A stretch of 14,968 nt of DNA, taken from the IMG/VR virus record IMGVR_UViG_2529292834_000017. The stretch is one strand, 5' to 3'. Source of the DNA: a virus. Taxonomy: Duplodnaviria > Heunggongvirae > Uroviricota > Caudoviricetes. A program made the translations under genes and the position numbers. How positions within the stretch are numbered: the first letter of the stretch is position 1; the number at the start of each line of letters is the position of its first letter. The notes under the pieces are model-generated. The model had not been told where the DNA came from. It was given only the letters and a program-made list of their open reading frames with translations, and did no database searches. Positions 1 through 14,474 of the stretch are shown in pieces.

Positions 1-1269
1 ATGCCAAAACTCACAGATATGCAGATCCGCGCATGGATAAAGGCGGGAGACAGATTTGATGGCAAGGCAGACGGCAACGGCCTTTATATTTGCTACCCCA
101 AAAACTACACAGTCCCGTTCTGGCGATTCCGATATAAGCTCGCAGGAAAACAGCGGGCTATGGTTATCGGCTCTTACTCCGAACTGTCACTATCAAAAGC
201 CAGAGAAACAGCAAAAGAGCTGTCAGCCAGAGTTGCTCTTGGCTATGACGTAGCAGCAGAAAAACAGGAACGAAAAGCTGAAGCACTGGCAAAAATGGAG
301 GCTGAGAAAAACGCCATGCGCGTTTCAGATCTGGCCGCCGAATACTTCGAGCGACAGATACTTCCGAGATGGAAACATCCCGATATCCTTCGCCGGAGAA
401 TTGATAAGGATATTAACCCCTGCATTGGGCATATGAAGGTAGAGGACGTTAAGCCACGTCACATTGACGACATGTTAAAAGGTATCGTTGACCGAGGAGC
501 ACCAACGATAGCAACAGATGTATTACGCTGGACACGCCGTATCTTTGACTATGGGATAAAACGCCACGCTCTGGAGATAAACCCTTGTTCAGCGTTTGAA
601 GTATCTGATGCTGGTGGTAAAGAGGTTTCCCGCGACCGTTGGCTAACTCGCGATGAGCTTATCAGGCTATTCGAGGCTATGCGCACCGCAAAAGGATTCA
701 GCCGCCAGAACGAACTGACATTTAAGCTATTGCTGGCACTATGCGTTCGTAAGATGGAGTTATGCGCCGCACGATGGGAAGAGTTTGATTTAGATGGTGC
801 GGTATGGCATTTGCCGGAAGAACGCAGCAAAAACGGAGACCCTATTGATATACCTCTACCTTCCCCAGCCGTTGAATGGTTGAGAGAGCTACACACCTTT
901 TCATGTAATAGCGCATGGGTGCTTCCGGCCAGGAAGATGCAAAACAGAATGATCCCACATATTCAGGAAAGCACTTTACCCGTAGCACTGGCTAAGGTTC
1001 GCGCCGAAATGCCGGATGTGCCTAATTTCACGATTCACGACTTCCGACGCACCGCACGTACTCATTTAGCAGCATTGGGTGTTGATCCTGTCGTGGCGGA
1101 ACGATGCCTCAATCATCGCATTAAGGGCGTAGAGGGGATTTATAACCGTCATCAGTATTTTGATGAGCGTAAAGCAGCACTGGCACAGTGGGCAGATCTG
1201 CTGGTGGCACTGGAAAGCGGGAAAGACTACAACGTAACGCCATTCGATAAAGCCCGGAGGCAAATGTGA
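1..1269 (+). CDS. int: Site-specific tyrosine recombinase, P4-type integrase
   Basis: 422-aa ORF starting at base 1. N-terminus (LTDMQIRAW...GNGLYICYPKN...WRFRYKLAGKQRAMVIGSYSELSLSKARE) fits the arm-binding domain pattern of P4-family integrases. C-terminal region carries the recombinase signature: Arg in LLLALCVRKMEL, HDFRRTA (H-x-x-R), LNH, and GIYNRHQY containing the catalytic Tyr. Family assignment from remembered hallmarks, not a database search. Confidence 0.93.
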   Translation: MPKLTDMQIRAWIKAGDRFDGKADGNGLYICYPKNYTVPFWRFRYKLAGKQRAMVIGSYSELSLSKARETAKELSARVALGYDVAAEKQERKAEALAKMEAEKNAMRVSDLAAEYFERQILPRWKHPDILRRRIDKDINPCIGHMKVEDVKPRHIDDMLKGIVDRGAPTIATDVLRWTRRIFDYGIKRHALEINPCSAFEVSDAGGKEVSRDRWLTRDELIRLFEAMRTAKGFSRQNELTFKLLLALCVRKMELCAARWEEFDLDGAVWHLPEERSKNGDPIDIPLPSPAVEWLRELHTFSCNSAWVLPARKMQNRMIPHIQESTLPVALAKVRAEMPDVPNFTIHDFRRTARTHLAALGVDPVVAERCLNHRIKGVEGIYNRHQYFDERKAALAQWADLLVALESGKDYNVTPFDKARRQM

Positions 1270-1916
1270 ACAACATCTTGAGAAAATCGCCAATCGAACG
1301 GCTTTGTTCATCTGTATCGATTACCCCTCATGAAATGGCTGTGGCCTTGGCTGGCCTAAACCCATCTATGCGCATTAGCGATGTGCCTGAGGAAAATTTC
1401 GAATATGTCGATTTTGTCAGAACTCATCTTGCCAGAGCTATCAAGGTGTACAGAGGTGAAAAAACTAGTAAAGATGAGCCTTGCCATGCCCTTGATATTT
1501 TCTTAGCTTCTTACCCATTTATTGACACAAATACACCAGAAATAATTGTTCAGAAAATATCAGAAGCGATTGATGATTTGCGTGGCACCAAGGGCTGGGA
1601 AGAAAAAGCCCGAAACCTTGGAGGACTCCAGTTAGTAAACTACATCAAAGAAACCAACCGCAGCGGACGTGGGCAGCATAGAAAGCAGGATGAGGAAAAC
1701 GGGACAATGAAAATGATGGGGTTGATAGTACATCTGCTGATAAAAAAATCAGGCTCATCTTCCTACATCCAAAATGGGAAACCTAATCGCACAGCTATAT
1801 ACCGTGACATAGAAACCTTAATCAAGGATGAAGGGATATCCCATAAAGGAATAGCAAAAGCCACATTCCTAGAAAAAATCTCACGGGCTTTATTAGCTGT
1901 CCACGATCTCGACTAA
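1266..1916 (+). CDS. Hypothetical protein, translationally coupled to int (unknown function)
   Basis: 216-aa ORF using GTG at 1266, which overlaps the int stop codon (TGA 1267-1269) and is preceded by GGAGG at 1255-1259. First internal ATG is at 1335 (193 aa) but has no SD. Codon usage is noticeably more AT-rich than int. No motif I can recognise. Confidence 0.55.
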   Translation: MNNILRKSPIERLCSSVSITPHEMAVALAGLNPSMRISDVPEENFEYVDFVRTHLARAIKVYRGEKTSKDEPCHALDIFLASYPFIDTNTPEIIVQKISEAIDDLRGTKGWEEKARNLGGLQLVNYIKETNRSGRGQHRKQDEENGTMKMMGLIVHLLIKKSGSSSYIQNGKPNRTAIYRDIETLIKDEGISHKGIAKATFLEKISRALLAVHDLD

Positions 1917-2069
1917 TCACTTTTCACGCCCCTCCAAAGCAATGGCGGGGCATTACCTGTTTACCCATCTCCACCAGCATAGATAATTCTATGCCTAGCC
2001 ATTGCTATATCTGTTCGGCTTAGTTCATCTGTAATCACCCCATCTCTAAAAGATACGCCAGCTATCATT

Positions 2070-2109
2070 AGCCATTTTAAGCCATCATGAGCCATCATGA
2101 GCCATTATA
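2070..2109. repeat. Four tandem 10-bp repeats AGCCAT(T/C)(T/A)T(A/G) at exact helical phasing; probable protein-binding array in the int-alpA intergenic region
   Basis: AGCCATTTTA AGCCATCATG AGCCATCATG AGCCATTATA at 2070, 2080, 2090 and 2100, plus an isolated AGCCATT at 1997. Lies in an AT-rich, non-coding 480-bp spacer (1917-2397). Confidence 0.5.
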
Positions 2110-2285
2110 AACCGACTCAACCAATTGAATAATAAAAGATAAAAAGAAATGTAAAAACATGATGAATGACGATGAAAGATATAACTCTTTGATAAAACAA
2201 TGATTTTTTAAACTGGTAACTAATTGAAAATAAAGAAAATAATTATCCCACCTGCATTTGCAATCTTTCAGTGGATCGGTATTTT

Positions 2286-2318
2286 TTCAATAGATTTATA
2301 ATTTCTTTCAATAGATTC
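2286..2318 (+). promoter_or_regulatory. Direct repeat TTCAATAGATT x2 (22 bp apart) overlapping a weak sigma70-like promoter upstream of alpA
   Basis: TTCAATAGATT at 2286-2296 and 2308-2318. Possible -35 TTTCAA (2306-2311) and -10 TAGAAA (2328-2333) with 16-bp spacing, about 65 bp upstream of the alpA ATG. Promoter assignment is inference. Confidence 0.3.
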
Positions 2319-2397
2319 TAGTCTTAATAGAAATACTGTATGGGCAACCACTAAACTTTAAGTAACTTCATGAGCTATCAGAGAGGTTACTAGAGAC

Positions 2398-2616
2398 ATG
2401 ACAGTACACAAGCCAGCATCATCAGCTATCCCAACAACTGGATACATCCGTCGCTTTCGCATGCCGGAATTGCTAGGTGTTTCACTGCCTACTATTGATA
2501 GATGGGTTAAAAATGGCACTCTTCCACGCCCAGTGAAGCTAACAGATAACGTGACTGCGTTTGATGCGGTGGAAATTAATAACTGGCTGGCAGAACGCCG
2601 CGGGAAGGTGGCCTGA
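2398..2616 (+). CDS. alpA: AlpA-family phage transcriptional regulator (HTH, excisionase-like)
   Basis: 72-aa ORF with SD AGAGAGG upstream. Sequence ...YIRRFRMPELLGVSLPTIDRWVKNGTLPRPVKLTDNVTAFDAVEINNWL... matches the AlpA/prophage CP4-57 regulator HTH pattern. Position directly downstream of a P4-type int is typical. Confidence 0.88.
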   Translation: MTVHKPASSAIPTTGYIRRFRMPELLGVSLPTIDRWVKNGTLPRPVKLTDNVTAFDAVEINNWLAERRGKVA

Positions 2617-3893: not shown

Positions 3894-4068
3894 GCCGACA
3901 GGAACACCACAACCTCAAAAACGCTACAAAGATGCCCACGGAGCACTCGTTACTGTCGAAAGCGTGTCTCACAACCGAGTGACGTTTTATCGCGACGGGT
4001 ATCAATCGCCATGCGTACAACCGCTGGCACGTTTCATGAAGGAGTTCGCGGAGGTTAACAAATGCTAA
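3886..4068 (+). CDS. Small hypothetical protein (60 aa), coupled to upstream gene
   Basis: ATG at 3886 overlaps the stop of the upstream gene (ATGTTTAA), the same overlap style as the other junctions in this operon. Protein [60 protein letters not shown]. The ORF track extends to 3799 but that would overlap the upstream gene by 95 nt. Confidence 0.5.
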   Translation: MFKPTGTPQPQKRYKDAHGALVTVESVSHNRVTFYRDGYQSPCVQPLARFMKEFAEVNKC

Positions 4069-5129
4069 CCGCCCAGAAGAAGATATTTTCACTGGCTGGT
4101 ATGTCGCCAAAATCCAGCAATATGACAGCAAAGTCAGACATTAATACAGCAGATACAAGCAAAGTTTATCATTTGCTGGTGGTAGGAGCGGATGCCTTAA
4201 CTATGTCAGAAATTACGGTCGATGGTGTTAGCGTTGAGAAGGTCAGCGGCTATGCCAGAGAATTTCTGGTCGTAGATGGCTTTCTCTGCTCGTGTAGTGA
4301 CTCCACAAAAACCTTCGTCCACGCGCGTGACGTTAACGAAATGAGCGCGATGTACTGTGCTTCTGGTTCTTCCAATAGTGAGTTTTCGGAGTCCATAAAA
4401 AAGAGCTTGCCGTTATGCGGCAACACGGTTTATGGTTATAAGGCACCTCATAAAACGGGTGCCGGGATTGGCGTCCTAAAAATTCTGAAGGCGACATATG
4501 ACGCGCCAAGCGTCTTTTTTTATGTCGTAGGTCTGACTCACCCATTTTTTGGGCGTTGGTGTATAATCCAGCGCCTTTGTCAATCAATGGTGGCTCAGGC
4601 GGGGGCTTCTTCGGAAGCGCCGGTATCCTTCAGAGCCGGTTACGCCAACCCTGTCTGGGCTACCACCAGCGAAATTGGCGTTTCCGGTGGTAGCGTAACC
4701 TGCTATCTGAAGGAGGCTGCCACATGCTGGCTACTACCCCTACCCAAAAAACGCAATTTATCTGGATTATCGCCGCAGTTCGCCGCGATTGCCCGACAAT
4801 TACCGCCAAAATTCATCATATTGCTGCCGAGTCTGAACGCGATGCTCGCCGTTCTCTGGTGCGCGATCACGTCTGCTTTTTTGCTGGTCGTATCCGCATG
4901 GAGGTGGCACATGATTAAAACCTACGATGTGCATATGGATCCCCTCGAACGCACAAGCCAGATCATCACACTGACAGAAGTGATTAACGACATTCTGGTG
5001 AGCAACTCTCCCTCACGAGACGAAAGACTGAAGGCGTTACTCGCGATATTGGATCTCGCCGTTCGTGACGTTCATTTCCTGCTGGAAGGTGGCGAAATGC
5101 CAGTAAAAACGGGGGCAACCAATGAATAA
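4062..5129 (+). CDS. Questionable 355-aa ORF, probably not one gene
   Basis: The first ~145 codons (4062 to ~4500) look protein-like. The ORF then reads through a hairpin+U7 terminator (4500-4521), a perfect TATAAT (4562-4567), a UUCG-tetraloop hairpin and a 9-bp hairpin, and the SD/ATG of a better ORF in another frame (4724). Its last 72 codons coincide with the separate gene 4911-5129. An annotation pipeline could still call it as one hypothetical protein. Confidence 0.3.
4381..4403 (+). promoter_or_regulatory. Copy 1 of conserved promoter-proximal motif AGTTTT-N2-GAGTCCATAAAAAA (putative early-operon promoter element)
   Basis: GAGTCCATAAAAAA at 4389-4402 is identical to 10237-10250 (14/14), with matching AGTTTT upstream in both. 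Followed by a perfect palindrome TTGCCG-N5-CGGCAA (4406-4422) and, about 100 nt downstream, a hairpin terminator. Confidence 0.35.
4500..4521 (+). terminator. Intrinsic terminator-like hairpin in the immunity leader (timm-like)
   Basis: GACGC-GCCAA-GCGTC stem-loop followed by TTTTTTT. Immediately preceded by TCTGAAGG (4484-4491), a seqA-like target complementary to 4628-4635. Confidence 0.45.
4530..4567 (+). promoter_or_regulatory. Sigma70-type promoter with perfect -10 TATAAT (4562-4567), weak -35
   Basis: TGTATAAT at 4560-4567. No good -35 hexamer at 17 bp, so activity is uncertain. Confidence 0.35.
4568..4700 (+). ncRNA. Candidate P4 CI / P1 C4-type antisense immunity RNA region (boundaries approximate)
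   Basis: Non-coding leader with a GCTTC-TTCG-GAAGC tetraloop hairpin (4605-4618) and a 9-bp perfect stem GCTACCACC/GGTGGTAGC (4659-4667 with 4686-4694). TCCTTCAGA at 4627-4635 is perfectly complementary to TCTGAAGGA at 4706-4714, which overlaps the SD (AGGAGG 4711-4716) of the Icd-like gene, and 8/8 complementary to 4484-4491. Family membership would need a covariance-model search. Confidence 0.4.
4724..4918 (+). CDS. Icd/Kil-like small protein (cell-division-inhibitor family of P1 icd / P4 kil position)
   Basis: 64-aa ORF with SD AAGGAGG (4706-4712). Motif [10 protein letters not shown]...[25 protein letters not shown] resembles Icd-like proteins as I remember them. Its stop overlaps the next ATG (ATGATTAA). 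Sits immediately downstream of the antisense-RNA-like leader, as in P1 immI and P4 immunity regions. Confidence 0.55.
   Translation: MLATTPTQKTQFIWIIAAVRRDCPTITAKIHHIAAESERDARRSLVRDHVCFFAGRIRMEVAHD
4911..5129 (+). CDS. Small hypothetical protein (72 aa), translationally coupled
   Basis: ATG at 4911 preceded by GGAGGTG; overlaps the upstream stop and the downstream start (ATGAATAA at 5122). Protein [32 protein letters not shown]... Confidence 0.5.
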   Translation: MIKTYDVHMDPLERTSQIITLTEVINDILVSNSPSRDERLKALLAILDLAVRDVHFLLEGGEMPVKTGATNE

Positions 5130-6401: not shown

Positions 6402-8753
6402 ATGCGAAACATTGATCTTATCCGTCAGGTTATCAGTGCGTCTGAAAACAACTGGCCTCATGTGCTGGACTGCCTGAACATAAATGTCCCTGACTCTCCG
6501 CGCCGTCATGCTCCCTGCCCTGCATGTGGGGGCAAAGATCGATTCCGGTTCGATGACAACGGGCGCGGTAGCTTCATCTGTAATCAGTGCGGCGCTGGTG
6601 ATGGGCTGGATTTAATTAAACGCGTAAATAACTGCGACACAACAGAGGCGGCGCTTCTTGCCGCTGATGTTCTGGGTATTGATTACCGGACAACGGAAAC
6701 ACCAGAAGCCACCAGCCAGAAACGGGAACAACTGGAAACCGAGCGCCAGCGACGCGAACAGGAGCGCCTGAAAAGGGCAGAGAAGGACGAACAACAAAGA
6801 CGGGATACGTTTTCCCGTCAGTTTGATGACATGCGCAGAAAGGCTGTAAACGGCAAATCTGATTATCTGGTTGCGAAAGGGGTAGGTGATTTTACATTCC
6901 CTGTGTTGCCCGATGGATCTCTGTTGCTGGCGCTGGTGGATAAATCCGGCGCAGTCACAGCAGCACAGACTATTACCTCACATGGTGAAAAAAGACTCCT
7001 GACAGGTTCAGCAAAGCGAGGGGCATATCACGCCATAAACGCACAGAAACGACCTCACAGCATCATAATTGCTGAGGGGGTGGCTACCGCCCTGTCGTGC
7101 CATTTAATTCGCCCTGACGCAATGACAGTGGCAGCAATCGACGCTGGCAACCTGTTGCCAGTAGCGGAAGTCATGCGCAGAACATATCCACAGGCACAAA
7201 TCATCATTGCCGCAGATAACGATCACCAGCAAGGAAACTCCGAAAGTGGAGGGATCAACACGGGGAAAGATGCCGCAGAGAGGGCCGCTATTTCCGTAGC
7301 TGGCTGGGTGTCTCTGCCACCGACTGACTATAAAGCCGACTGGAACGACTATCACCAACAACACGGGCTGGCGGCAGCCACAGCAGCATTTAAAGATTCG
7401 ATGTACCAGCCACGGGGGAAAGGGGCGCAGGTGAAAAATCACAAACAGTCAGTCGGGGCGCTGAATGAGATCAGTTCTGGCGAGGTGTTAAGCGATGATG
7501 AAATTGCTGTCCTCGAAGAAATCAACCGGACGTTTACGCATGTCACCATCGGCGGGAAACACAAGGTGGTGTCGCTAAAGCCTTCTCAAACCGGCGGTGT
7601 ATCGCACGTTTTCGAGGATTTATCACAATTTCAGCATTATTTTCATCATAAACCGAGAGTCGCCAGAAAGCTGGCGGGATCGGCGTGGCTGTCATGGAGT
7701 GGGAAGAACTACAAGCCAGGAGGCGTAGGATTTTATCCAGTACCAGACAAATGCCCTGACGATGTTTTTAATCTGTATGAGGGGCTGGCACTGGAACCAA
7801 TTGAAGGAGATTGCACGGTATACCTTAATCACCTGTTGCAGGTTGTCTGTGCCGGTAATGAAGAGGCATACCAATATCTTATCCAGTGGATGGCGCACAT
7901 TATCCAAAAGCCTGATGAAAAACCGTCCGTGGCAATCGTGATGAAATCTGTCCCGGGCACAGGGAAAGGCACAACGGTTAAACCGCTGCTGCAAATACTG
8001 GGGCAGTACGCCGCCCACATTAACGGGGCGGGACATATTTCAGGGCGCTTCAATTCAATACTTGCTAACAAGCTACTGGTATTTGCTGACGAAGTGACGA
8101 TCCACAAGCCGTCTGAAGCTGACAGACTTAAAGCGATTATTAGCGAACCGACGTTTAACCTTGAGCGCAAGGGAATTGATGCTGAACCAATGCCGAATTT
8201 TGCCCGGTTGATATTTGCCAGTAACAGCACACAGGTATTACAGGCAGGGATAAGAGAGCGCCGCTATCTCGTGCTTGAGCCATCTCCTGAAAAAGCACAG
8301 AGCCGGGAGTATTTTGATCGGCTGTACAGTTGGCTTAATGATGGCGGTGCCGCAAAGTTGCTTTGGCATCTTAAAGGGGTGGATCTCTCAGGTTTTGACC
8401 CTCAACGAGCGCCACAGACCGATGCCTTACGTGAAGAAATCTTGCTGGGGCTGTCTGGCGTTGAATTGTTTCTTTATGGCGAGCTAATCAATGAACCTCC
8501 GTTTAATGGCGAAGTCCGTTTGTTTGCAAAGGATATGGTTAGTCGATTTGTAGCGTGGTCGCTTGAGCGTGGGGAAAAGCTTAAAGAACCAGCTGCCAGA
8601 TCACTACTGGGTAAATCACTTGCACAAATGGGGCTGGTGAAGCATGGAAGACCAGACCGAGGGAATGGCGTGTTCTACGAACTACCAGAGGTCGGAGTTC
8701 TACAGGCTGCGTTTGCCCGTCTGATCGGTATGGGGGGGTATGATGTTTTTTAA
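6402..8753 (+). CDS. P4 alpha-type bifunctional DNA primase / SF3-like helicase (zinc ribbon + Toprim + D5/P4-family NTPase)
   Basis: 783-aa ORF with SD GGGGGC. N-terminal zinc ribbon CPACGGKDRFRFDDNGRGSFICNQCGAGDGLDLI (CxxC...CxxC), near-diagnostic of P4-alpha-like primases. Toprim-like IIIAEGVATAL and AADNDHQ (DxD). P-loop-like SVPGTGKGTT, Walker B-like LLVFADEV, sensor-like LIFASNS. Size matches P4 alpha (777 aa). Confidence 0.93.
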   Translation: MRNIDLIRQVISASENNWPHVLDCLNINVPDSPRRHAPCPACGGKDRFRFDDNGRGSFICNQCGAGDGLDLIKRVNNCDTTEAALLAADVLGIDYRTTETPEATSQKREQLETERQRREQERLKRAEKDEQQRRDTFSRQFDDMRRKAVNGKSDYLVAKGVGDFTFPVLPDGSLLLALVDKSGAVTAAQTITSHGEKRLLTGSAKRGAYHAINAQKRPHSIIIAEGVATALSCHLIRPDAMTVAAIDAGNLLPVAEVMRRTYPQAQIIIAADNDHQQGNSESGGINTGKDAAERAAISVAGWVSLPPTDYKADWNDYHQQHGLAAATAAFKDSMYQPRGKGAQVKNHKQSVGALNEISSGEVLSDDEIAVLEEINRTFTHVTIGGKHKVVSLKPSQTGGVSHVFEDLSQFQHYFHHKPRVARKLAGSAWLSWSGKNYKPGGVGFYPVPDKCPDDVFNLYEGLALEPIEGDCTVYLNHLLQVVCAGNEEAYQYLIQWMAHIIQKPDEKPSVAIVMKSVPGTGKGTTVKPLLQILGQYAAHINGAGHISGRFNSILANKLLVFADEVTIHKPSEADRLKAIISEPTFNLERKGIDAEPMPNFARLIFASNSTQVLQAGIRERRYLVLEPSPEKAQSREYFDRLYSWLNDGGAAKLLWHLKGVDLSGFDPQRAPQTDALREEILLGLSGVELFLYGELINEPPFNGEVRLFAKDMVSRFVAWSLERGEKLKEPAARSLLGKSLAQMGLVKHGRPDRGNGVFYELPEVGVLQAAFARLIGMGGYDVF

Positions 8754-8782
8754 TATAGTCTTTTTACAAGAAGATCGTTTTT

Positions 8783-8795
8783 ACCTGTACCACCT
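8783..8795 (-). repeat. Single iteron-like copy (reverse complement AGGTGGTACAGGT) 30 bp after the primase stop
   Basis: ACCTGTACCACCT on the + strand matches 13/14 of the GGTGGTACAGGTGG repeat clustered at 9809-9911. Confidence 0.45.
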
Positions 8796-8844
8796 ATACC
8801 ATTAACAAACGCATTTCTTCTGGCTGGCTGAGAGGGAACAACCA

Positions 8845-10405: not shown

Positions 10406-10579
10406 ATGGCTATTTCAGTAAAGCCAGTATTGATAAGTGAGAAGCAAATGGAAGCGATAAAGAAAATTCAGGAGGAGCAGCGTAAAAAATCAGAGGTAGG
10501 AGTTGCGCCAACGATCCACGAAATTGCTCGGGGATTAATGGATAAGGCGCTGGCTTACACTTTAACTGGACGTGGGTAA
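10406..10579 (+). CDS. Small hypothetical protein (57 aa), first gene of the cargo operon
   Basis: Strong SD AAGGGGGG 6 nt before the ATG at 10406. Protein MAISVKPVLISEKQMEAIKKIQEEQRKKSEVGVAPTIHEIARGLMDKALAYTLTGRG, charged and helical-looking. Possible small regulator or partner protein; inference only. Confidence 0.6.
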   Translation: MAISVKPVLISEKQMEAIKKIQEEQRKKSEVGVAPTIHEIARGLMDKALAYTLTGRG

Positions 10580-10583
10580 ATTT

Positions 10584-11927
10584 ATGGCTACGTGGCAACA
10601 GGGTATTAATTCTGGTGGTTTTCTGGCTGGCATCGGTGCGCAAAATGAGAATGCGCCAAAGGCAAGCGACATTAACGCAACGCTTGGTCTGATCCGCGAA
10701 AACAATGAACTGGCTCGCTCAGGTGCAAATAACGTTGCTCTGACAGGTCTTCGTGGTCTGGCTGGAGTTGCTGACATTTATAAGCAGCAGCAACAGCAGG
10801 AACGTAAAGCGGCATTCCAGAAAGGTTATGCAGATGCTTATGCGTCCGGTGACAGGGAGCAGATGCGTAATCTTATTACAGCATTCCCAGAAGAGTTTGA
10901 GGAAGTCCGTAAAGGGATGAGTTATGTCGATGATGCTCAAAGGGATGATTATGGCAATCTGGCGCTCAAAGCACAGGTAGCCTCATCGCTTGGTCAGGGC
11001 GCATTTGGCAGGTTCATGATGGATAATGAGCAGGAGATGCGTCGTTTAGGTATCCCTCCAGAAACTATTGCTGAAATGCAGGTTAATGACCCGCAGGGCT
11101 TCCAGCATTTCGCAGGTAATCTGGCGCTGTTTTCTCTCGGTCATGAGAAGTATTTCGATATCAAAGATCAAATGGAAGGTCGTCGACTTGAGCAAGGGCG
11201 ACTGGATGAAAGTATGCGTCAGGCTGACATGGAGAACGCGAGAGGATGGGCAAATATCCAGAACGCTCAACTAGACAGGGCTCAGCGAGCACAAATTCAC
11301 TCAGATGAGATGGGATTGAAGCTAATGGAGCTGGGGCAAAAAGGTAAGCCGTCAGCAGACTTAATTAAGGGATTAAATTCTGACATTACCAATTTTGGCA
11401 AAAATTATAACTCTGTCAGAGCGGCGGCAAACTCTCTGCAAGCCCTTAGCAAGGTAAATACTGGCGCTGCCCAACTTGGGATTATCTTCAACTACATGAA
11501 ATCTCTTGACCCGCAGTCAGTCGTTCGTGAAGGCGAACAGGTTCAGGTAATGCGGTCTGATGGCATATGGGGACAAATCAAAGGATACATAGACCAGCTT
11601 AATGCTGGAAACGGCCTGTCGCAGGAGGCAAAGGATAACATTGTTAACGCCGCAAAAATCAACGCCAATGCTATGGGGCAGCAGTTTAACCAGCAGGTTG
11701 ACGAGTATCTCGATACATATGGAGAAACTATTCCTCAGGGGCTAAGAAAAAGCCTTGAAAGAAGGAAAGCGAAGCTATTTGACGATGTTTCCGGGCAGCC
11801 TACATCACAGGCTGGCACTGGACAGGCAAAAGCGGCAACCGGAGGAATATCAGAAGGCGCAACGGCAACCAACCCTAAAACTGGTCAGAAAATCATTTAC
11901 AGGAACGGAAAATGGCAGCAAATGTAA
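10584..11927 (+). CDS. Hypothetical coiled-coil-rich protein (~448 aa; 451 aa if GTG 10572 is used) with Gly-rich N-terminus
   Basis: Long ORF with coding-like composition. N-terminal Gly/Ala/Asn-rich segment (GINSGGFLAGIGAQNENAPK), then a Q/E/R-rich probable coiled coil (QADMENARGWANIQNAQLDRAQRAQIH). No Walker, nuclease or other catalytic motif seen. Start ambiguous between GTG 10572 (overlapping the upstream stop) and ATG 10584. Confidence 0.8.
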   Translation: MATWQQGINSGGFLAGIGAQNENAPKASDINATLGLIRENNELARSGANNVALTGLRGLAGVADIYKQQQQQERKAAFQKGYADAYASGDREQMRNLITAFPEEFEEVRKGMSYVDDAQRDDYGNLALKAQVASSLGQGAFGRFMMDNEQEMRRLGIPPETIAEMQVNDPQGFQHFAGNLALFSLGHEKYFDIKDQMEGRRLEQGRLDESMRQADMENARGWANIQNAQLDRAQRAQIHSDEMGLKLMELGQKGKPSADLIKGLNSDITNFGKNYNSVRAAANSLQALSKVNTGAAQLGIIFNYMKSLDPQSVVREGEQVQVMRSDGIWGQIKGYIDQLNAGNGLSQEAKDNIVNAAKINANAMGQQFNQQVDEYLDTYGETIPQGLRKSLERRKAKLFDDVSGQPTSQAGTGQAKAATGGISEGATATNPKTGQKIIYRNGKWQQM

Positions 11928-14029
11928 TCTTACCGGAAGGTTTTGTGCTCGATGAACAACCTGATAACTCACAGTTTCCTGATAGTTCACAGCTTCCTGA
12001 TGGTTTTGTGCTTGATGCCCAACCAGAACAGCAGCAATCACCTTTGGTTTCACCAGAGGAAAATTCCAGACAGGAAAATGTTGTTAATAATGCTAACGGT
12101 TTCGACCGTTTTATGTATGGCGTTCTCAGTGGATTGATGGATGTTGGTAAAGGTGTTGGCCTGTTTCAGGATATGACACCAGAAGAGCAAGCCGCAATTC
12201 AGTCTCTACAGCAGAAGTTAGCGGCAAAACCATCAACCGCACAAGATGTTGGTGAGTTCGTTGGACAAGCAGCGCCATTTGTTAGTGGTGGTGGGATTAT
12301 TTCTCAGGTTCCCAAAGGGGCGGCAAGACTGGCTGCCGCCGCAGGGCTTGGTGCTGGAGAAGGGGCTATTGTAGCCAATGGAACAAATAGCGATGTTGCT
12401 TCCGGCGCTGCTATTGGCGCTGTGGCTGGCCCTGTAGCCGAACTTGCTGGCCCTGCAATTAATAAAATAGCTGGGAAATTAACCAAGAAGAATGTTTCTT
12501 CGATTCCAGATATTGAGGGGATTACTCCTGCCGAAGAGAAAATTCGTAAGTTATCTGCACAAGGCAACCCAAATCTTGCCTCTTCGCTTGAAGGGCTAGA
12601 TCTAAAACCTCAGAAAGAAATTGTTGAGGCTGCAAATAGGCTTCATGTTGATTCAGTTCTTCCTTCTCATTTATCAGGAAATGAGCAATACCAAGCTGTA
12701 GAGCAAGCCCTAAAGTCACGGACAGGATCAGCGTTAAAAGCTCAAGAAGATAAAGCAATAAGCGAATTAGCCTCTAGTGCTGGCAAGATAATCGATGATG
12801 TTGCTGGTGCGCCAGATGCGTTAGCTATGAGCGAAAAATATATTTATCAGATAAATAGTAGAATGGAAGCACTAAAAAACCGTAGTGATCAGTTATATAA
12901 ACGTGTTGATTCCGCTCTATCACCAAGAACAAAAGTCGAAGCAAATAACACAAGCACTATGCTGGAAAAAATCGCTGATGATTTAGGAGGGTGGGATAAT
13001 CTTGACCCAATAGAAAAGCGAGTTTTTACAGCAATAAACCCCGGCCCAGATAGCATCCTAACGTATGCAAATTTAAACAGGCAAAGGCGTTTAGTTGGTG
13101 ATGCCCTAAATAAAAAGCAGGGGCCATACAAAGATGCTGATAAAGAAGCGCTATCAAGACTATATGGAGCTTTAGCTGAAGACCAAAAATCTGTCTTATC
13201 CAATACTGGATACTTGCGAGATTTCGAAGTCGCACAACGCCTTGTAGCTATGAGAAAAAACTTAGAAAGGCAAATGGTAAATCTTCGCGGGAAAACACTT
13301 AATGGGGATATAGCGTATAAAGTAACGAATTCTCTTCAATCTATGGCAAAAGGTGATGCGAGAGGGTTTCGTGAGATTATGCAAAATACTCCATCAAGAA
13401 CATTGCGAAGGGAGCTAGTAGGAACAGCATTAAGAGATATGCTTTCCTCTGGGAAGCGTGGGGCCGACTTTAATCCATCTGGCTTCGCAGATTGGTGGCA
13501 AAACTTGCAACACAGTGGACAGCTAAAGACTTTGGCTGAACATTTGCCAAAAGAAACAATGAGCGGACTATATGATGTATACAAAGTTGCCAGAGCAATA
13601 AAAAATGCTAAAGCGCATGAAATATCTACTGGTAAGCTGAATGAGTTTGTAAACAGATTTAATCGGGTAACAGCTCCATACGAACTAGCAGCAAAACACA
13701 TTCAAAAAATAGGCACGATGGTAGGCGCTCATTTTGGATCGCTTGGAGCCATTGCTGGGGCTGATATTGGAGCAAGATTGGCGAGTAAAGCTCGATTAGC
13801 TGGTGGAGCAGGGGCGGCTGATGCTGCGGATAAATTAATTGCCTCGCCAGCCTTCCAGAGCGCAGTAAAAAATCTACACGGAAAAGCGCCTGGGCACATT
13901 GTTGATTCACGTATCAGGCGCTCCCCTCAATGGAAGAGTTTTTTTAACTCTCTTCCTGAACAGGAAAAACGGACCATCGCCAGACTGGGCATCATTACTT
14001 GGCTATCTAATGATCCAGATAATGACTAG
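11912..14029 (+). CDS. Hypothetical 705-aa protein with N-terminal tandem repeat and Gly/Ala-rich amphipathic segments
   Basis: ATG at 11912 with AGGAA 6 nt upstream; overlaps the end of the upstream gene by 16 nt. N-terminus has a tandem repeat LPEGFVLDEQP / LPDGFVLDAQP. Gly/Ala-rich stretches at residues ~125-180 (AARLAAAAGLGAGEGAIVANG...AIGAVAGPVAELAGPAINKIAGKL) and near the C-terminus (GSLGAIAGADIGARLASKARLAGGAGAADAADKLIASPA). No enzymatic motif recognised. GC content drops sharply after ~12500. Confidence 0.85.
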   Translation: MAANVILPEGFVLDEQPDNSQFPDSSQLPDGFVLDAQPEQQQSPLVSPEENSRQENVVNNANGFDRFMYGVLSGLMDVGKGVGLFQDMTPEEQAAIQSLQQKLAAKPSTAQDVGEFVGQAAPFVSGGGIISQVPKGAARLAAAAGLGAGEGAIVANGTNSDVASGAAIGAVAGPVAELAGPAINKIAGKLTKKNVSSIPDIEGITPAEEKIRKLSAQGNPNLASSLEGLDLKPQKEIVEAANRLHVDSVLPSHLSGNEQYQAVEQALKSRTGSALKAQEDKAISELASSAGKIIDDVAGAPDALAMSEKYIYQINSRMEALKNRSDQLYKRVDSALSPRTKVEANNTSTMLEKIADDLGGWDNLDPIEKRVFTAINPGPDSILTYANLNRQRRLVGDALNKKQGPYKDADKEALSRLYGALAEDQKSVLSNTGYLRDFEVAQRLVAMRKNLERQMVNLRGKTLNGDIAYKVTNSLQSMAKGDARGFREIMQNTPSRTLRRELVGTALRDMLSSGKRGADFNPSGFADWWQNLQHSGQLKTLAEHLPKETMSGLYDVYKVARAIKNAKAHEISTGKLNEFVNRFNRVTAPYELAAKHIQKIGTMVGAHFGSLGAIAGADIGARLASKARLAGGAGAADAADKLIASPAFQSAVKNLHGKAPGHIVDSRIRRSPQWKSFFNSLPEQEKRTIARLGIITWLSNDPDND

Positions 14030-14048: not shown

Positions 14049-14474
14049 TCAATCTTTATTCTTTGAAATAGAGTCATTGATCTTTTCGAAACACCAATGA
14101 AATCCACAAAAGAGAGCTACACCAATATAACAATACAAAACTATCAACCACCTTTCAGTGTCCGAAGGGTAAAAAACATCAATTACATAAGCAACACCAA
14201 TTGGTATTAATGCTAGTAATAACATCGACACAGGACGTACAAACTTCTGAACTATATCAATTTTATAGAACCACAAGGCGGTATGTTTAATGATATAAGT
14301 AAAGATGGCTGCGCCAATAATGGCAAAAAACACCATCGATAAAGTCGGGTATAACTTTGCGACAATTAAACCCAACAAAATAATTATAACTGCCTGCCCC
14401 CTCACACCAACCCTCCCTTTAGCTTTGTTTAGAATGGCAATCATCATATATCCAAGACATGGCATTTGGTACAT
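14049..14474 (-). CDS. Small integral membrane protein (141 aa, ~4 predicted TM helices), low GC
   Basis: Minus-strand ORF convergent with the 705-aa gene. Hydrophobic stretches VIIILLGLIVAKLYPTLSMVFFAIIGAAIFTYII, VSMLLLALIPIGVAYVIDVF and LIVLYCYIGVALFCGF. Very AT-rich codon usage. No clear SD at any of the candidate starts (14474, 14465, 14447). Confidence 0.65.
   Translation of the reverse strand: MYQMPCLGYMMIAILNKAKGRVGVRGQAVIIILLGLIVAKLYPTLSMVFFAIIGAAIFTYIIKHTALWFYKIDIVQKFVRPVSMLLLALIPIGVAYVIDVFYPSDTERWLIVLYCYIGVALFCGFHWCFEKINDSISKNKD

What the first reader, a model, noticed from the sequence alone, without database searches (positions are those of the whole stretch)
1266..1916. Int-coupled unknown ORF with a GTG start and lower GC
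A 216-aa ORF begins on the int stop codon with a good SD and is followed by a long AT-rich spacer. Int-adjacent positions in P4-like elements are a known hotspot for accessory or defence genes. The compositional contrast with int suggests separate acquisition.
Basis: inference. Interest (0 to 1): 0.35.

Follow-up and report, generated by a model that had tools for sequence, protein, structure and literature searches.

The report
Integrase-coupled orphan gene with 10-bp repeat array
The ORF is a real gene of unknown function that always sits directly after the integrase of certain E. coli phage satellites and is always followed by an array of 10-bp repeats, so it is more likely one half of a DNA-binding control cassette in front of the satellite's master switch alpA than a borrowed defence gene.

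Summary
ORF 1266-1916 (216 aa, GTG) overlaps the int stop by 4 nt and has a GGAGG Shine-Dalgarno sequence. Its GC is 0.42 against 0.49 for int. A 481-bp AT-rich spacer follows.

The window is an EcCIMP1-like Gram-negative PICI (phage-inducible chromosomal island) inserted at yicC-dinD in E. coli.

The ORF belongs to a tiny uncharacterised family: 35 representatives among 1.84 billion proteins, phrog_30524, with no Pfam, NCBIfam or PADLOC match. A confident AlphaFold model (pLDDT 90) is all-alpha and has no match in the PDB or in BFVD (predicted viral structures).

Homologs down to 23-36% identity all lie within 30 nt of an integrase stop and upstream of alpA. This holds in classical PICIs and in a capsid-forming PICI.

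In 12 of 12 loci where the homolog is followed directly by its spacer, the spacer carries tandem 10-bp repeats. Their sequence and copy number differ between loci; here the unit is AGCCATCATG x5 at 2060-2110.

A sibling island identical everywhere else, including primase and AlpA, swaps the cassette 1246-2425 for an unrelated gene plus terminator and has no array. So the gene and the array form one exchangeable module. Candidate defence cargo in a relative lies downstream of the homolog.

My best reading, which is inferred and not shown, is an iteron-binding regulator that gates alpA.

The parts
1..1269 (+). Tyrosine integrase of the PICI, with arm-binding, central and catalytic domains. It lies at the left end, next to yicC.
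   Evidence: Pfam Arm-DNA-bind_3 8.9e-20, Phage_int_M, Phage_integrase. Annotated context in E. coli E8.
1256..1260 (+). GGAGG Shine-Dalgarno sequence inside the int 3' end, 5 nt upstream of the GTG start.
   Evidence: Read directly from the sequence. Purine-rich stretches are at the same place in homologous loci.
1266..1916 (+). ORF216. It is an all-alpha protein with two parts: an acidic to neutral N-terminal domain (about residues 1-131), a conserved basic linker (SGRGxHRKxDE, residues 133-143), and a basic C-terminal helical domain (137-212).
   Evidence: phrog_30524, 3e-34; pLDDT 90.1; pI split in all 27 members; purifying selection.
1246..2425 (.). Exchangeable cassette: the last 8 int codons, ORF216, the spacer with the repeat array, the alpA upstream region and the first 9 alpA codons.
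   Evidence: blastn break points against the AH25 and STEC383 islands, which are otherwise 95-99% identical.
1928..1951 (+). Hairpin just after the ORF216 stop. It may be a terminator or stabiliser of the int-ORF216 transcript, but it has no U-tract.
   Evidence: RNA fold -15.1 kcal/mol, z -2.2. Stronger hairpins at the same place in L004 (z -2.6), L005 (z -6.8) and L006 (z -6.1).
1960..1987 (+). Sigma-70-like promoter match (TTTACC-16-GATAAT). It is flanked by an inverted repeat (1938-1953 and 1991-2006) that contains the GCCAT motif.
   Evidence: Consensus scan only. The number of promoter-like sites in the region does not exceed the shuffled expectation. Inverted repeat I3.
2060..2110 (.). 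Array of five 10-bp direct repeats, AGC(C/T)ATYWTR. A further isolated AGCCAT lies at 1997.
   Evidence: TRF period 10, 5.1 copies. The related E8 locus has 4 copies. Four of the nine forward-strand AGCCAT copies in the window lie at 2070-2100 and a fifth at 1997. Lag-10 autocorrelation is 31/40 against a shuffled maximum at any lag of 20.6 +/- 1.4.
2114..2260 (.). Very AT-rich tract between the array and the alpA-proximal boxes (about 0.28 GC).
2264..2316 (+). Three copies of a TTTCAATAGAT-like box at about 20-bp spacing. They may be AlpA autoregulation sites.
   Evidence: D3, D5. Similar TTCAATRGAW boxes lie upstream of alpA in 7 of 9 ORF216-type loci and in none of the four other cassette types. 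The assignment to AlpA is inference.
2356..2395 (+). alpA leader hairpin (GTAAC...GTTAC) that pairs the alpA Shine-Dalgarno sequence.
   Evidence: RNA fold -14.6 kcal/mol, z -3.6. The same hairpin is present in cassette types A-D.
2398..2616 (+). alpA, the master activator and excision regulator of Gram-negative PICIs.
   Evidence: Pfam Phage_AlpA 6.2e-06. Role taken from PMC6092414 and PMC11773190.

Best explanation
ORF216 is the protein half of a two-part cassette. The DNA half is the 10-bp repeat array 144 bp downstream of its stop codon.

Proposed mechanism (inferred):
- ORF216 is made together with integrase in the quiescent island by translational coupling.
- Its basic C-terminal domain and GRG-HRK linker bind the helically phased repeats as an oligomer.
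- The resulting nucleoprotein block lies between the int operon and the promoter or leader of alpA, the master activator. It gates when alpA, and so excision and replication, switches on.
- In this reading, allelic versions of the cassette, and the unrelated cassettes in sibling islands, would set the induction or immunity specificity of otherwise identical satellites. This parallels phage immunity regions and SaPI Stl variants.

Shown:
- The coupling to int.
- The strict gene-array linkage.
- That the cassette is exchangeable.
- Independence from the primase, AlpA and integrase sequences.
- The two-domain charge split.

Inferred:
- DNA binding by ORF216.
- The direction of the effect on alpA.
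- Any link to the helper phage.
For: 1. Synteny. Every homolog looked at, from 83% down to 23% identity, lies between 4 nt of overlap and about 30 nt of gap from an Arm-DNA-bind_3 integrase stop, and upstream of alpA where alpA lies on the contig. This holds at yicC and at other sites, and in a packaged capsid-forming PICI, vB_KppS-Ant.

2. Array linkage. In 12 of 12 loci where the homolog is followed directly by its spacer, the best autocorrelation lag is exactly 10 bp. Eleven loci score 27-40 matches of 40 against a shuffled maximum of about 20 +/- 1.3; L015 scores only 23/40, inside the shuffle range. The array lies about 60-190 bp after the stop.

3. Repeat sequence. The repeats are related between close homologs (window AGCCATCATG; L005 AAGCCGTCAT; L006 AAGTCGTCAT) and unrelated between distant ones (GTCACCTGGA, ACAAAGCACT, GGGTCTCTAA, GTAATACAGT). 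The 10-bp structure persists throughout.

4. Exclusion of other binders. The STEC383 island is 96.6-99.2% identical outside 1242-2425, has a primase identical at 782 of 783 residues and shares the alpA sequence from codon 10 onward. It has no AGCCAT cluster anywhere. So the array is not the primase origin, an AlpA site or an integrase arm site.

5. Origin elsewhere. Origin-like iterons lie downstream of the primase instead (window 8783-8801; L020 TGTTCACC at 11721-11949).

6. Charge split. All 27 family members have an acidic or neutral N-terminal domain (pI 5.6-8.9; 5.6-7.9 in 26 of 27) and a basic C-terminal domain (pI 8.8-9.9).

7. Allele shuffling. ORF216 alleles are shuffled relative to int (L012: int 89% identical, ORF 36%) and follow alpA identity more closely, as expected for a regulatory module.

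8. Literature. Whether Gram-negative PICIs have a global repressor is described as unclear, and the helper signal that turns on alpA is unidentified (PMC6092414).
Against: - Several spacers hold two or three different 10-bp units. Near-identical cassettes (L006, L024, L026) have amplified different units. This is awkward for a single sequence-specific binder.
- The array in L015 is not distinguishable from shuffled sequence (23/40).
- The array lies about 290 bp upstream of the alpA start, not over an identified promoter.
- The island already carries a P4-type RNA immunity element, C4 and isrK, so a protein repressor is not strictly needed.
- Sibling cassettes A-D have only a terminator and a spacer of about 110 bp, with no array.
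- L016, the most distant homolog, has no array.
- Gene-array linkage could partly reflect common descent of a linked segment.
Confidence: 0.35

Rival explanations
1. ORF216 is an accessory gene, either anti-phage defence or helper interference, that sits in an int-adjacent hotspot. The repeats are incidental intergenic DNA.
For: - The slot is variable and non-homologous between islands with 98-99% identical int.
- The cassette has lower GC.
- The protein evolves fast, and alleles are shuffled relative to int.
- EcCIMP1 confers unexplained superinfection immunity without any known defence system (PMC11773190).
- Accessory genes sit between int and the regulator in Gram-positive PICIs.
Against: - No PADLOC hit for ORF216, for its cf-PICI homolog, or for slot types A, C and D; type B has only a weak PDC-S31 match at E 0.002.
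- The slot held exactly one gene in every island sampled, never none and never several.
- The family keeps its position after integrases that are only 25-27% identical, in two satellite lineages.
- In L016 the candidate defence gene (PDC-S47, 5.6e-36) lies downstream of the homolog.
- The view does not explain the 12 of 12 association with 10-bp arrays.
Confidence: 0.2
2. ORF216 plus the array and the adjacent AT-rich tract is a replication or maintenance module. It could be a second origin or a crr-like site with its own initiator, or a copy-control or partition (centromere-like) system for the excised circle.
For: - Iterons next to an AT-rich tract, adjacent to the gene, is the classical initiator-origin layout. 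It also resembles SaPI Rep-ori pairs (established knowledge).
- In L020 one sub-array unit (TGTTCATC) resembles the P4-type iteron TGTTCACC found 4.4-4.6 kb away, downstream of the primase. L005 has four GTTCACC-like repeats in its spacer.
- Repeat copy number varies between strains.
Against: - STEC383 and many other islands share the same primase (782 of 783 residues) but lack both the array and ORF216.
- Separate origin-like repeats lie downstream of the primase, which is where PICI origins are reported.
- ORF216 has no similarity to Rep, ParB, ParR or TubR folds.
- Co-expression with int in the integrated state is unusual for an initiator.
Confidence: 0.12
3. ORF216 is an integrase partner: a recombination accessory factor, a directionality factor, or a regulator of int expression or activity.
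For: The overlap or near-overlap with the int stop is conserved in all loci, which implies co-translation and fixed stoichiometry. The family is only ever found after Arm-DNA-bind_3 integrases.
Against: - ORF216 alleles do not co-diverge with int (89% against 36% in L012).
- The same int, at 99% identity, works with unrelated slot genes that are not translationally coupled to it; the gaps are 18-115 nt.
- The repeats lie about 2 kb from the att core, too far for an arm-type architectural role.
- alpA is the known excision factor.
Confidence: 0.1
4. ORF216 is an RNA-binding protein. It would recognise the repeated 10-nt motifs in the int-ORF216 3' UTR or the alpA leader transcript and control read-through or translation.
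For: - The fold is an all-alpha, repeat-like helical one. The best, non-significant, Foldseek matches are armadillo, Puf and Ro proteins.
- Hairpins flank the spacer at both ends.
Against: - No match is significant.
- L020 has a sub-array that looks like the inverted form of the others, which fits DNA recognition and not RNA.
- No transcript data are available.
Confidence: 0.05

Closest known systems
SaPI Stl / Gram-positive PICI Rpr master repressors
   Same: They are encoded next to int and co-directional with it. They lie between int and the induction module. They are hypervariable between sibling islands that are otherwise similar. Each is followed by the intergenic control region it acts on, and each couples island induction to a helper phage (PMC6092414).
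   Different: No sequence or fold similarity was found, and no recognisable HTH. Stl is transcribed divergently from the genes it represses, whereas here everything is on one strand. ORF216 has not been shown to bind DNA or to repress. Gram-negative PICIs are currently described as activator-controlled (AlpA) with no known repressor.
P2 Cox / 186 Apl / P4 Vis / lambda Xis type proteins (own knowledge)
   Same: These proteins act by coating arrays of direct repeats phased about one helical turn apart, which is the geometry seen here.
   Different: They are small winged-helix proteins of about 70-90 aa that act at or near att sites and early promoters. ORF216 is a 216-aa all-alpha protein, and its array lies about 2 kb from att. 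The AlpA/Vis homolog of this island is a separate gene (2398-2616).
Iteron-origin pairs: P4 alpha with type I iterons (TGTTCACC), SaPI Rep with ori (own knowledge; ori position per PMC10111431)
   Same: A gene with an adjacent short tandem iteron array next to an AT-rich tract. The iteron sequence co-varies with the linked protein.
   Different: The island's primase is shared with islands that lack the array. Origin-like repeats lie downstream of the primase.
P4 psu-int defence hotspot (Rousset et al. 2022, cited) and PICI accessory regions
   Same: An int-adjacent position where unrelated genes replace each other between related satellites.
   Different: There is always exactly one gene and no known defence family. 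The ORF216 family itself is conserved in position across satellite lineages. In L016 the candidate defence genes lie downstream of it.
EcCIMP1_002 of PICI EcCIMP1 (PMC11773190)
   Same: It occupies the same slot between int and the canonical alpA in the best-studied relative of this island. It is also of unknown function, and the alpA control region there is also long (the reporter spanned -449 to +50).
   Different: It is a much smaller protein, about a tenth the size of UvrB and mis-annotated as UvrB. The paper gives no indication that it is related to ORF216; I did not compare the sequences.

Membership tests
phrog_30524 (PHROGs, unknown function) | Full-length match to the family profile | tested here: met
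   E 3e-34, 119.5 bits, residues 11-209 on profile positions 14-213 of 220.
Gram-negative PICI (four-zone organisation, PMC10111431) | int, alpA and primase co-oriented, with int at the left end pointing inward | tested here: met
   int 1-1269, alpA 2398-2616 and primase 6402-8753, all on the + strand.
Gram-negative PICI (four-zone organisation, PMC10111431) | A Bro zone with immunity RNAs, then a replication zone, then a late zone with captured phage late genes | tested here: met
   AntA and Ash; C4 at 79.9 bits and isrK at 60.5 bits; a Toprim/DUF5906 primase; and P22-type Inj_translocase (2.5e-73) with DNA-transfer genes.
Gram-negative PICI | Helper-dependent excision, replication and packaging | not testable with these tools
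   Shown only for the relative EcCIMP1 with phage Kapi1. A cf-PICI carrying a homolog was sequenced from an induced lysate.
P4-like satellite | The capsid-hijacking genes psu, delta and sid | tested here: not met
   No such Pfam hit in any window ORF scanned.
P4-like satellite | An alpha-type primase-helicase and CI/C4 RNA immunity | tested here: met
   Zn_Ribbon_Prim, Toprim_3 and DUF5906; C4 and isrK RNAs.
Known anti-phage defence systems (PADLOC-DB 2.0) | Match to a defence protein model | tested here: not met
   No family at E <= 0.01 for ORF216 or for its cf-PICI homolog.
Stl/Rpr-like master repressor | A recognisable HTH DNA-binding domain | tested here: inconclusive
   No Pfam, PDB or fold match. 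A basic C-terminal helical domain is present in all 27 members. Only sub-threshold HTH hits were seen in a few members.
Stl/Rpr-like master repressor | Divergent transcription from the genes it represses | tested here: not met
   int, ORF216 and alpA are all on the + strand.
Stl/Rpr-like master repressor | Binds the adjacent control region and is released by a helper-phage protein | not testable with these tools
   The only evidence is the conserved repeat array next to the gene.
Iteron-binding replication initiator | The array is required together with the element's replication proteins | tested here: not met
   The STEC383 island has the same primase (782 of 783 residues) but no array and no ORF216. 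This is comparative evidence, not functional.

The most novel reading that the evidence does not exclude
The ORF216 family would be the missing protein regulator of a large subset of Gram-negative PICIs and cf-PICIs. It would be a new-fold protein, co-translated with integrase, that polymerises on helically phased 10-bp iterons upstream of alpA. It would be displaced or remodelled by a helper-phage product, so each cassette allele would define which helper can induce the satellite. That makes it a functional analogue of SaPI Stl that arose independently.
Probability: 0.2. Interest if true: 0.75.

Novelty: new variant of a known kind. Interest (0 to 1): 0.5.

Why it matters
How helper phages switch on alpA in Gram-negative PICIs, and whether these satellites have any protein repressor, are stated open questions (PMC6092414). 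This gene-plus-iteron cassette sits exactly between the integrase operon and alpA. It is exchangeable between otherwise identical islands. It is shared by classical and capsid-forming PICIs.

That gives a concrete and cheap experimental handle: one 216-aa protein, one 480-bp DNA fragment, and natural cassette-swap controls such as STEC383 against the ETEC islands.

It also warns against annotating every int-adjacent unknown gene in a satellite as a defence candidate.

If the cassette turns out to be inert, the result is still useful. It would define a small orphan family with a confidently predicted fold that has no PDB match.

Tried and rejected
Searches that found nothing for ORF216:
- Pfam, NCBIfam, PADLOC and PDB sequence and profile searches.
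- The first AlphaFold run with 11 close homologs was too poor to use (pLDDT 63.5). A 27-sequence alignment gave pLDDT 90.1.

Attempts to link the slot proteins to each other:
- I tested whether the alternative slot proteins share a C-terminal module with ORF216.
- BLASTP found nothing.
- hhalign against the type C family aligned the two C-terminal domains at P = 0.005 (probability 7%). hhalign against the type A/B C-terminus gave P = 0.069.
- This is suggestive but not significant, so I do not claim it.
- A database search with the 80-aa type A C-terminus returned only 3 proteins.

Other searches:
- The genome-contig scan found only 2 species representatives. The A3 alignment was too diverse for pattern searching.
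- Rfam found nothing in the spacer beyond a chance-level CRISPR-DR hit.
- tblastn against the phage collection, at an E limit of 1e-3, matched only vB_KppS-Ant. I did not confirm that P4 is in that collection.

Ideas rejected:
- Integrase arm sites: the array is absent from islands with 99% identical int and lies 2 kb from att.
- AlpA sites: the array is absent from islands that share the alpA sequence from codon 10 onward.
- A pac or cos packaging site: the cassette occurs both in satellites with their own terminase and in satellites with P22-type late genes.

Literature searches found no description of this family or of the arrays.
Full report
**Observation**

The ORF is there as described. 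The ORF listing gives 1266..1916, + strand, 216 aa, GTG start. The sequence reads ...GGAGGCAAATGTGA.... int ends ATG-TGA, with its stop at 1267-1269. The GTG lies at 1266-1268, so the genes overlap by 4 nt. GGAGG lies 5 nt upstream of the GTG.

GC is 0.493 for int, 0.424 for the ORF, 0.345 for the 481-bp spacer (1917-2397) and 0.470 for the window. The contrast is real but modest.

The ORF is a genuine gene. Homologs of 216 aa at 68-83% identity share the whole length. Their first 23 residues are nearly invariant. Non-synonymous differences are 0.11-0.18 while synonymous sites are saturated at about 0.76. All homologs start with ATG at the same position; only the window uses GTG.

**What the element is**

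The window is 99.7-100% identical to an island inserted between yicC and dinD in ETEC and other E. coli.

Gene order is as follows:
- int, ORF216 and alpA
- a PM1773-family gene, antA, a DUF4222 gene and ash
- small ORFs, then a Toprim/DUF5906 primase
- P22-type ejection-protein genes, and a PerC regulator beyond the window

Rfam finds a C4 antisense RNA (79.9 bits) and isrK (60.5 bits) inside the ash ORF. No psu, sid or delta was found.

This is the four-zone Gram-negative PICI layout described in PMC10111431. It fits the 'EcCIMP1-like' elements of Pick et al. (PMC11773190). These keep the antirepressor, Ash and the primase conserved, while int, AlpA and PerC are more variable. So the element is a PICI with some P4-like parts, not a P4-like satellite.

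**The protein**

ORF216 matches nothing in Pfam, NCBIfam, PADLOC or PDB sequences; its only match is phrog_30524, of unknown function, at 3e-34. An exhaustive HMMER profile search of 1.84 billion representatives found only 35 proteins at E <= 1e-3, nearly all of about 206-241 aa.

The family conserves TPE (90-92), LGG (118-120), the loop SGRGxHRKxDE (133-143) and a C-terminal KPxxxxIYxDI...ISxKGIxxSTFxxK segment. All 27 members combine an acidic or neutral N-terminal domain with a basic C-terminal domain of pI 8.8-9.9.

**Genomic behaviour: a slot and a family**

In complete E. coli genomes this integrase family occurs in 554 genomes, and 266 records carry it at >=95% identity. ORF216 occurs in 203 genomes: 114 records at >=99% and 91 at about 70%.

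Islands at the same site whose int is 98-99% identical carry a different gene instead:

| Strain(s) | Slot gene | Cassette type |
|---|---|---|
| AH25, 54 | 316 aa | A |
| FLI21 | 272 aa | A |
| STEC383 | 321 aa | B |
| HNSQ2209, 64.1 | 293 aa | C |
| STN0717-20 | 307 aa | D |

Every island sampled has exactly one same-strand gene between int and alpA.

Similarity to the window breaks at 1241/1245 and resumes at 2426. The exchanged cassette is therefore the last 8 int codons, ORF216, the spacer and the first 9 alpA codons.

The whole STEC383 island is 96.6-99.2% identical to the window outside that cassette. Its primase is identical at 782 of 783 residues.

The ORF216 family also keeps its place. 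Homologs at 23-36% identity again lie immediately after an Arm-DNA-bind_3 integrase. The offset is -4 nt in five loci and -1 to +11 nt in four others; in L027 the listed ORFs leave about 30 nt. Where alpA lies on the contig, the homolog is upstream of it. This holds at yicC in other genera, at a different chromosomal site, and in 'Escherichia phage vB_KppS-Ant', a 16.5-kb capsid-forming PICI recovered from an induced lysate.

ORF216 alleles are shuffled relative to int. In L012, int is 89% identical to the window's but the ORF is only 36% identical. In L006 the figures are 64% and 72%. ORF216 identity follows alpA identity more closely.

In L016 three genes lie between the homolog and alpA: a candidate defence gene (PDC-S47/Abi_alpha, 5.6e-36), an unknown gene and an Mrr-like nuclease gene. 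The homolog stays next to int. This is hard to reconcile with ORF216 itself being hotspot cargo.

The 'AT-rich spacer' is structured. At 2060-2110 there are five 10-bp direct repeats, AGC(C/T)ATYWTR. Strain E8 has four. Four of the nine forward-strand AGCCAT copies in the window lie there, and a fifth is at 1997.

I measured autocorrelation in the spacers downstream of every ORF216-family gene in hand. In 12 of 12 loci where the gene is followed directly by its spacer, the best lag is exactly 10 bp. Eleven loci give 27-40 matches in a 40-nt window, against about 20 +/- 1.3 for the best lag in shuffles. The twelfth, L015, gives only 23, which shuffles also reach.

The repeat unit changes with divergence:
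- AAGCCGTCAT at 83% identity (L005)
- AAGTCGTCAT, AGCGAGTCAT and CCGTGCCAGT at 72% (L006, L024, L026)
- GTCACCTGGA, ACAAAGCACT, CGGTATTGGC, GGGTCTCTAA and GTAATACAGT x6 at 26-36%
- CATTCAACAG x4, CACGTAACGA x4 and TGTTCATCAT x6 in the cf-PICI L020

Cassettes A-D have spacers of only about 110 bp, with an intrinsic terminator and no array.

STEC383 shares the primase, int (98.9%) and the alpA sequence from codon 10 onward with the window, but has no AGCCAT cluster anywhere. The array therefore belongs with ORF216. It is not the primase origin, an AlpA site or an integrase arm site.

Origin-like repeats lie downstream of the primase instead. In the window these are ACCTGTACC/ACCTATACC at 8775-8801. 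In L020 they are P4-type TGTTCACC iterons at 11721-11949.

**Rest of the cassette**

- A hairpin follows the stop codon: 1928-1951, -15.1 kcal/mol, z -2.2. Equivalent hairpins in L004, L005 and L006 are stronger, with z from -2.6 to -6.8.
- A promoter-like match lies at 1960-1987. It rests on consensus only and does not exceed chance.
- The array comes next, followed by a tract of about 0.28 GC.
- Three TTTCAATAGAT-like boxes lie at 2264-2316. Similar boxes recur upstream of alpA in 7 of 9 ORF216-type loci and in none of the other cassette types.
- A hairpin at 2356-2395 pairs the alpA Shine-Dalgarno sequence (z -3.6). It is conserved in all cassette types.

**Interpretation**

The best-supported reading is that ORF216 and the array are the trans and cis halves of one module. 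The module lies between the int operon and alpA, the master activator whose helper-dependent induction is unexplained and for which no repressor is known.

I propose an array-binding regulator that is co-translated with integrase and gates alpA. Cassette alleles would then act like immunity or induction-specificity alleles.

This is inference, and the counter-evidence is substantial:
- No DNA-binding fold was detected.
- Some spacers hold more than one repeat unit.
- Near-identical cassettes have amplified different units.
- The array lies about 290 bp from the alpA start.
- The island already has RNA immunity (C4).

I give this reading about 0.35. The rivals are:

| Rival | Confidence | Main weakness |
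|---|---|---|
| Defence or interference accessory gene | 0.2 | Does not explain the conserved position or the arrays |
| Replication, copy-control or partition module | 0.12 | Weakened by the STEC383 comparison |
| Integrase cofactor | 0.1 | No co-divergence with int; the same int works with other slot genes |
| RNA-binding leader regulator | 0.05 | No significant match and no transcript data |

**Shared module between slot proteins: not shown**

Slot types A, B and D share an N-terminal HTH-like segment of 26-40 residues. Types A and B share a 74-aa C-terminus.

Profile comparison of the ORF216 family with the type C family aligned only the two C-terminal domains, at P = 0.005 and probability 7%. 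Comparison with the type A/B C-terminus gave P = 0.069. The positions are consistent, but the scores are not significant.

**Verdict**

It is not a typical defence-hotspot cargo, and the element is not P4-like in the strict sense.

The finding is more interesting than first scored. It uncovers a conserved gene-plus-iteron cassette of unknown function at the control point of Gram-negative PICIs, and it is readily testable.

Noticed in passing
window 4443-4520 (+) and 4583-4670 (+): isrK (60.5 bits) and a C4 antisense RNA (79.9 bits) lie inside the ORF annotated 'ash family protein' (4062-5129). This is a P4-type CI/seqA RNA immunity unit in a PICI that lacks psu, sid and delta.
   Followed up: partly
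window 10572-11927 and 11912-14029 (+): The satellite's late zone carries homologs of P22-type ejection proteins (Inj_translocase 2.5e-73; a 705-aa protein matching phrog_6704 and the 'DNA transfer protein' phrog_770). This fits a P22-like helper such as Kapi1 and may relate to the unexplained superinfection immunity reported for EcCIMP1.
   Followed up: no
window 2356-2395 (+); L002 8282-8329: A hairpin (GTAAC...GTTAC) pairs the alpA Shine-Dalgarno sequence (-14.6 kcal/mol, z -3.6). It is conserved in all five cassette types, so it may be a translational or protein-binding control element of the master activator.
   Followed up: partly
window 2264-2316: Three TTTCAATAGAT-like boxes at about 20-bp spacing lie upstream of alpA. 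They recur as TTCAATRGAW in 7 of 9 ORF216-type loci and are absent from the short spacers of cassette types A-D. They may be AlpA autoregulation sites.
   Followed up: partly
window 8775-8801; L001 22770-22876: ACCTGTACC/ACCTATACC repeats lie just downstream of the primase, and the window has a 67-bp deletion relative to strain E8. This is the probable island origin. The cf-PICI L020 has P4-type TGTTCACC iterons at the equivalent place (11721-11949).
   Followed up: partly
L002 7273-8223, L003 7356-8321, L008 4355-5236, L011 4376-5299: The alternative int-alpA slot proteins are themselves mosaic. Types A, B and D share an N-terminal HTH-like segment of 26-40 residues. Types A and B share a 74-aa C-terminus (78% identity) around unrelated middles. 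Type C belongs to a wider family of about 290-320 aa found in Enterobacterales and marine gammaproteobacteria. None has a known function.
   Followed up: partly
L016 1963-4895: In the most distant ORF216 homolog's locus, a PDC-S47/Abi_alpha gene (5.6e-36), an unknown gene and an Mrr_cat nuclease gene are inserted between the homolog and alpA. That makes the spacer downstream of the ORF216 family a candidate cargo insertion point.
   Followed up: partly
window 2060-2110 vs L001 16060-16100; L006, L024, L026 spacers: Repeat copy number differs between near-identical cassettes (5 against 4 AGCCAT units). In the Klebsiella-type cassette different 10-bp units are amplified in different contigs (CCGTGCCAGT x4 in L024; AGCGAGTCAT x3-4 in L026). 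This suggests ongoing slippage in steps of one helical turn.
   Followed up: partly
window 11960-12001: An 18-bp tandem repeat (2.3 copies, CCTGATAACTCACAGCTT) lies at the 5' end of the 705-aa DNA-transfer-like gene.
   Followed up: no
window 14049-14474 (-): The only sizeable reverse-strand ORF (141 aa) gives weak, sub-threshold hits to Bax1-I and CBO0543 membrane-protein families. RefSeq annotates it as hypothetical.
   Followed up: no
L005 (contig CACSKA010000004.1): A locus with an 83%-identical ORF216 and a 90%-identical int sits in an assembly labelled Chryseobacterium sp. The label is probably a mislabel or contamination, because the flanking and island genes look enterobacterial.
   Followed up: no
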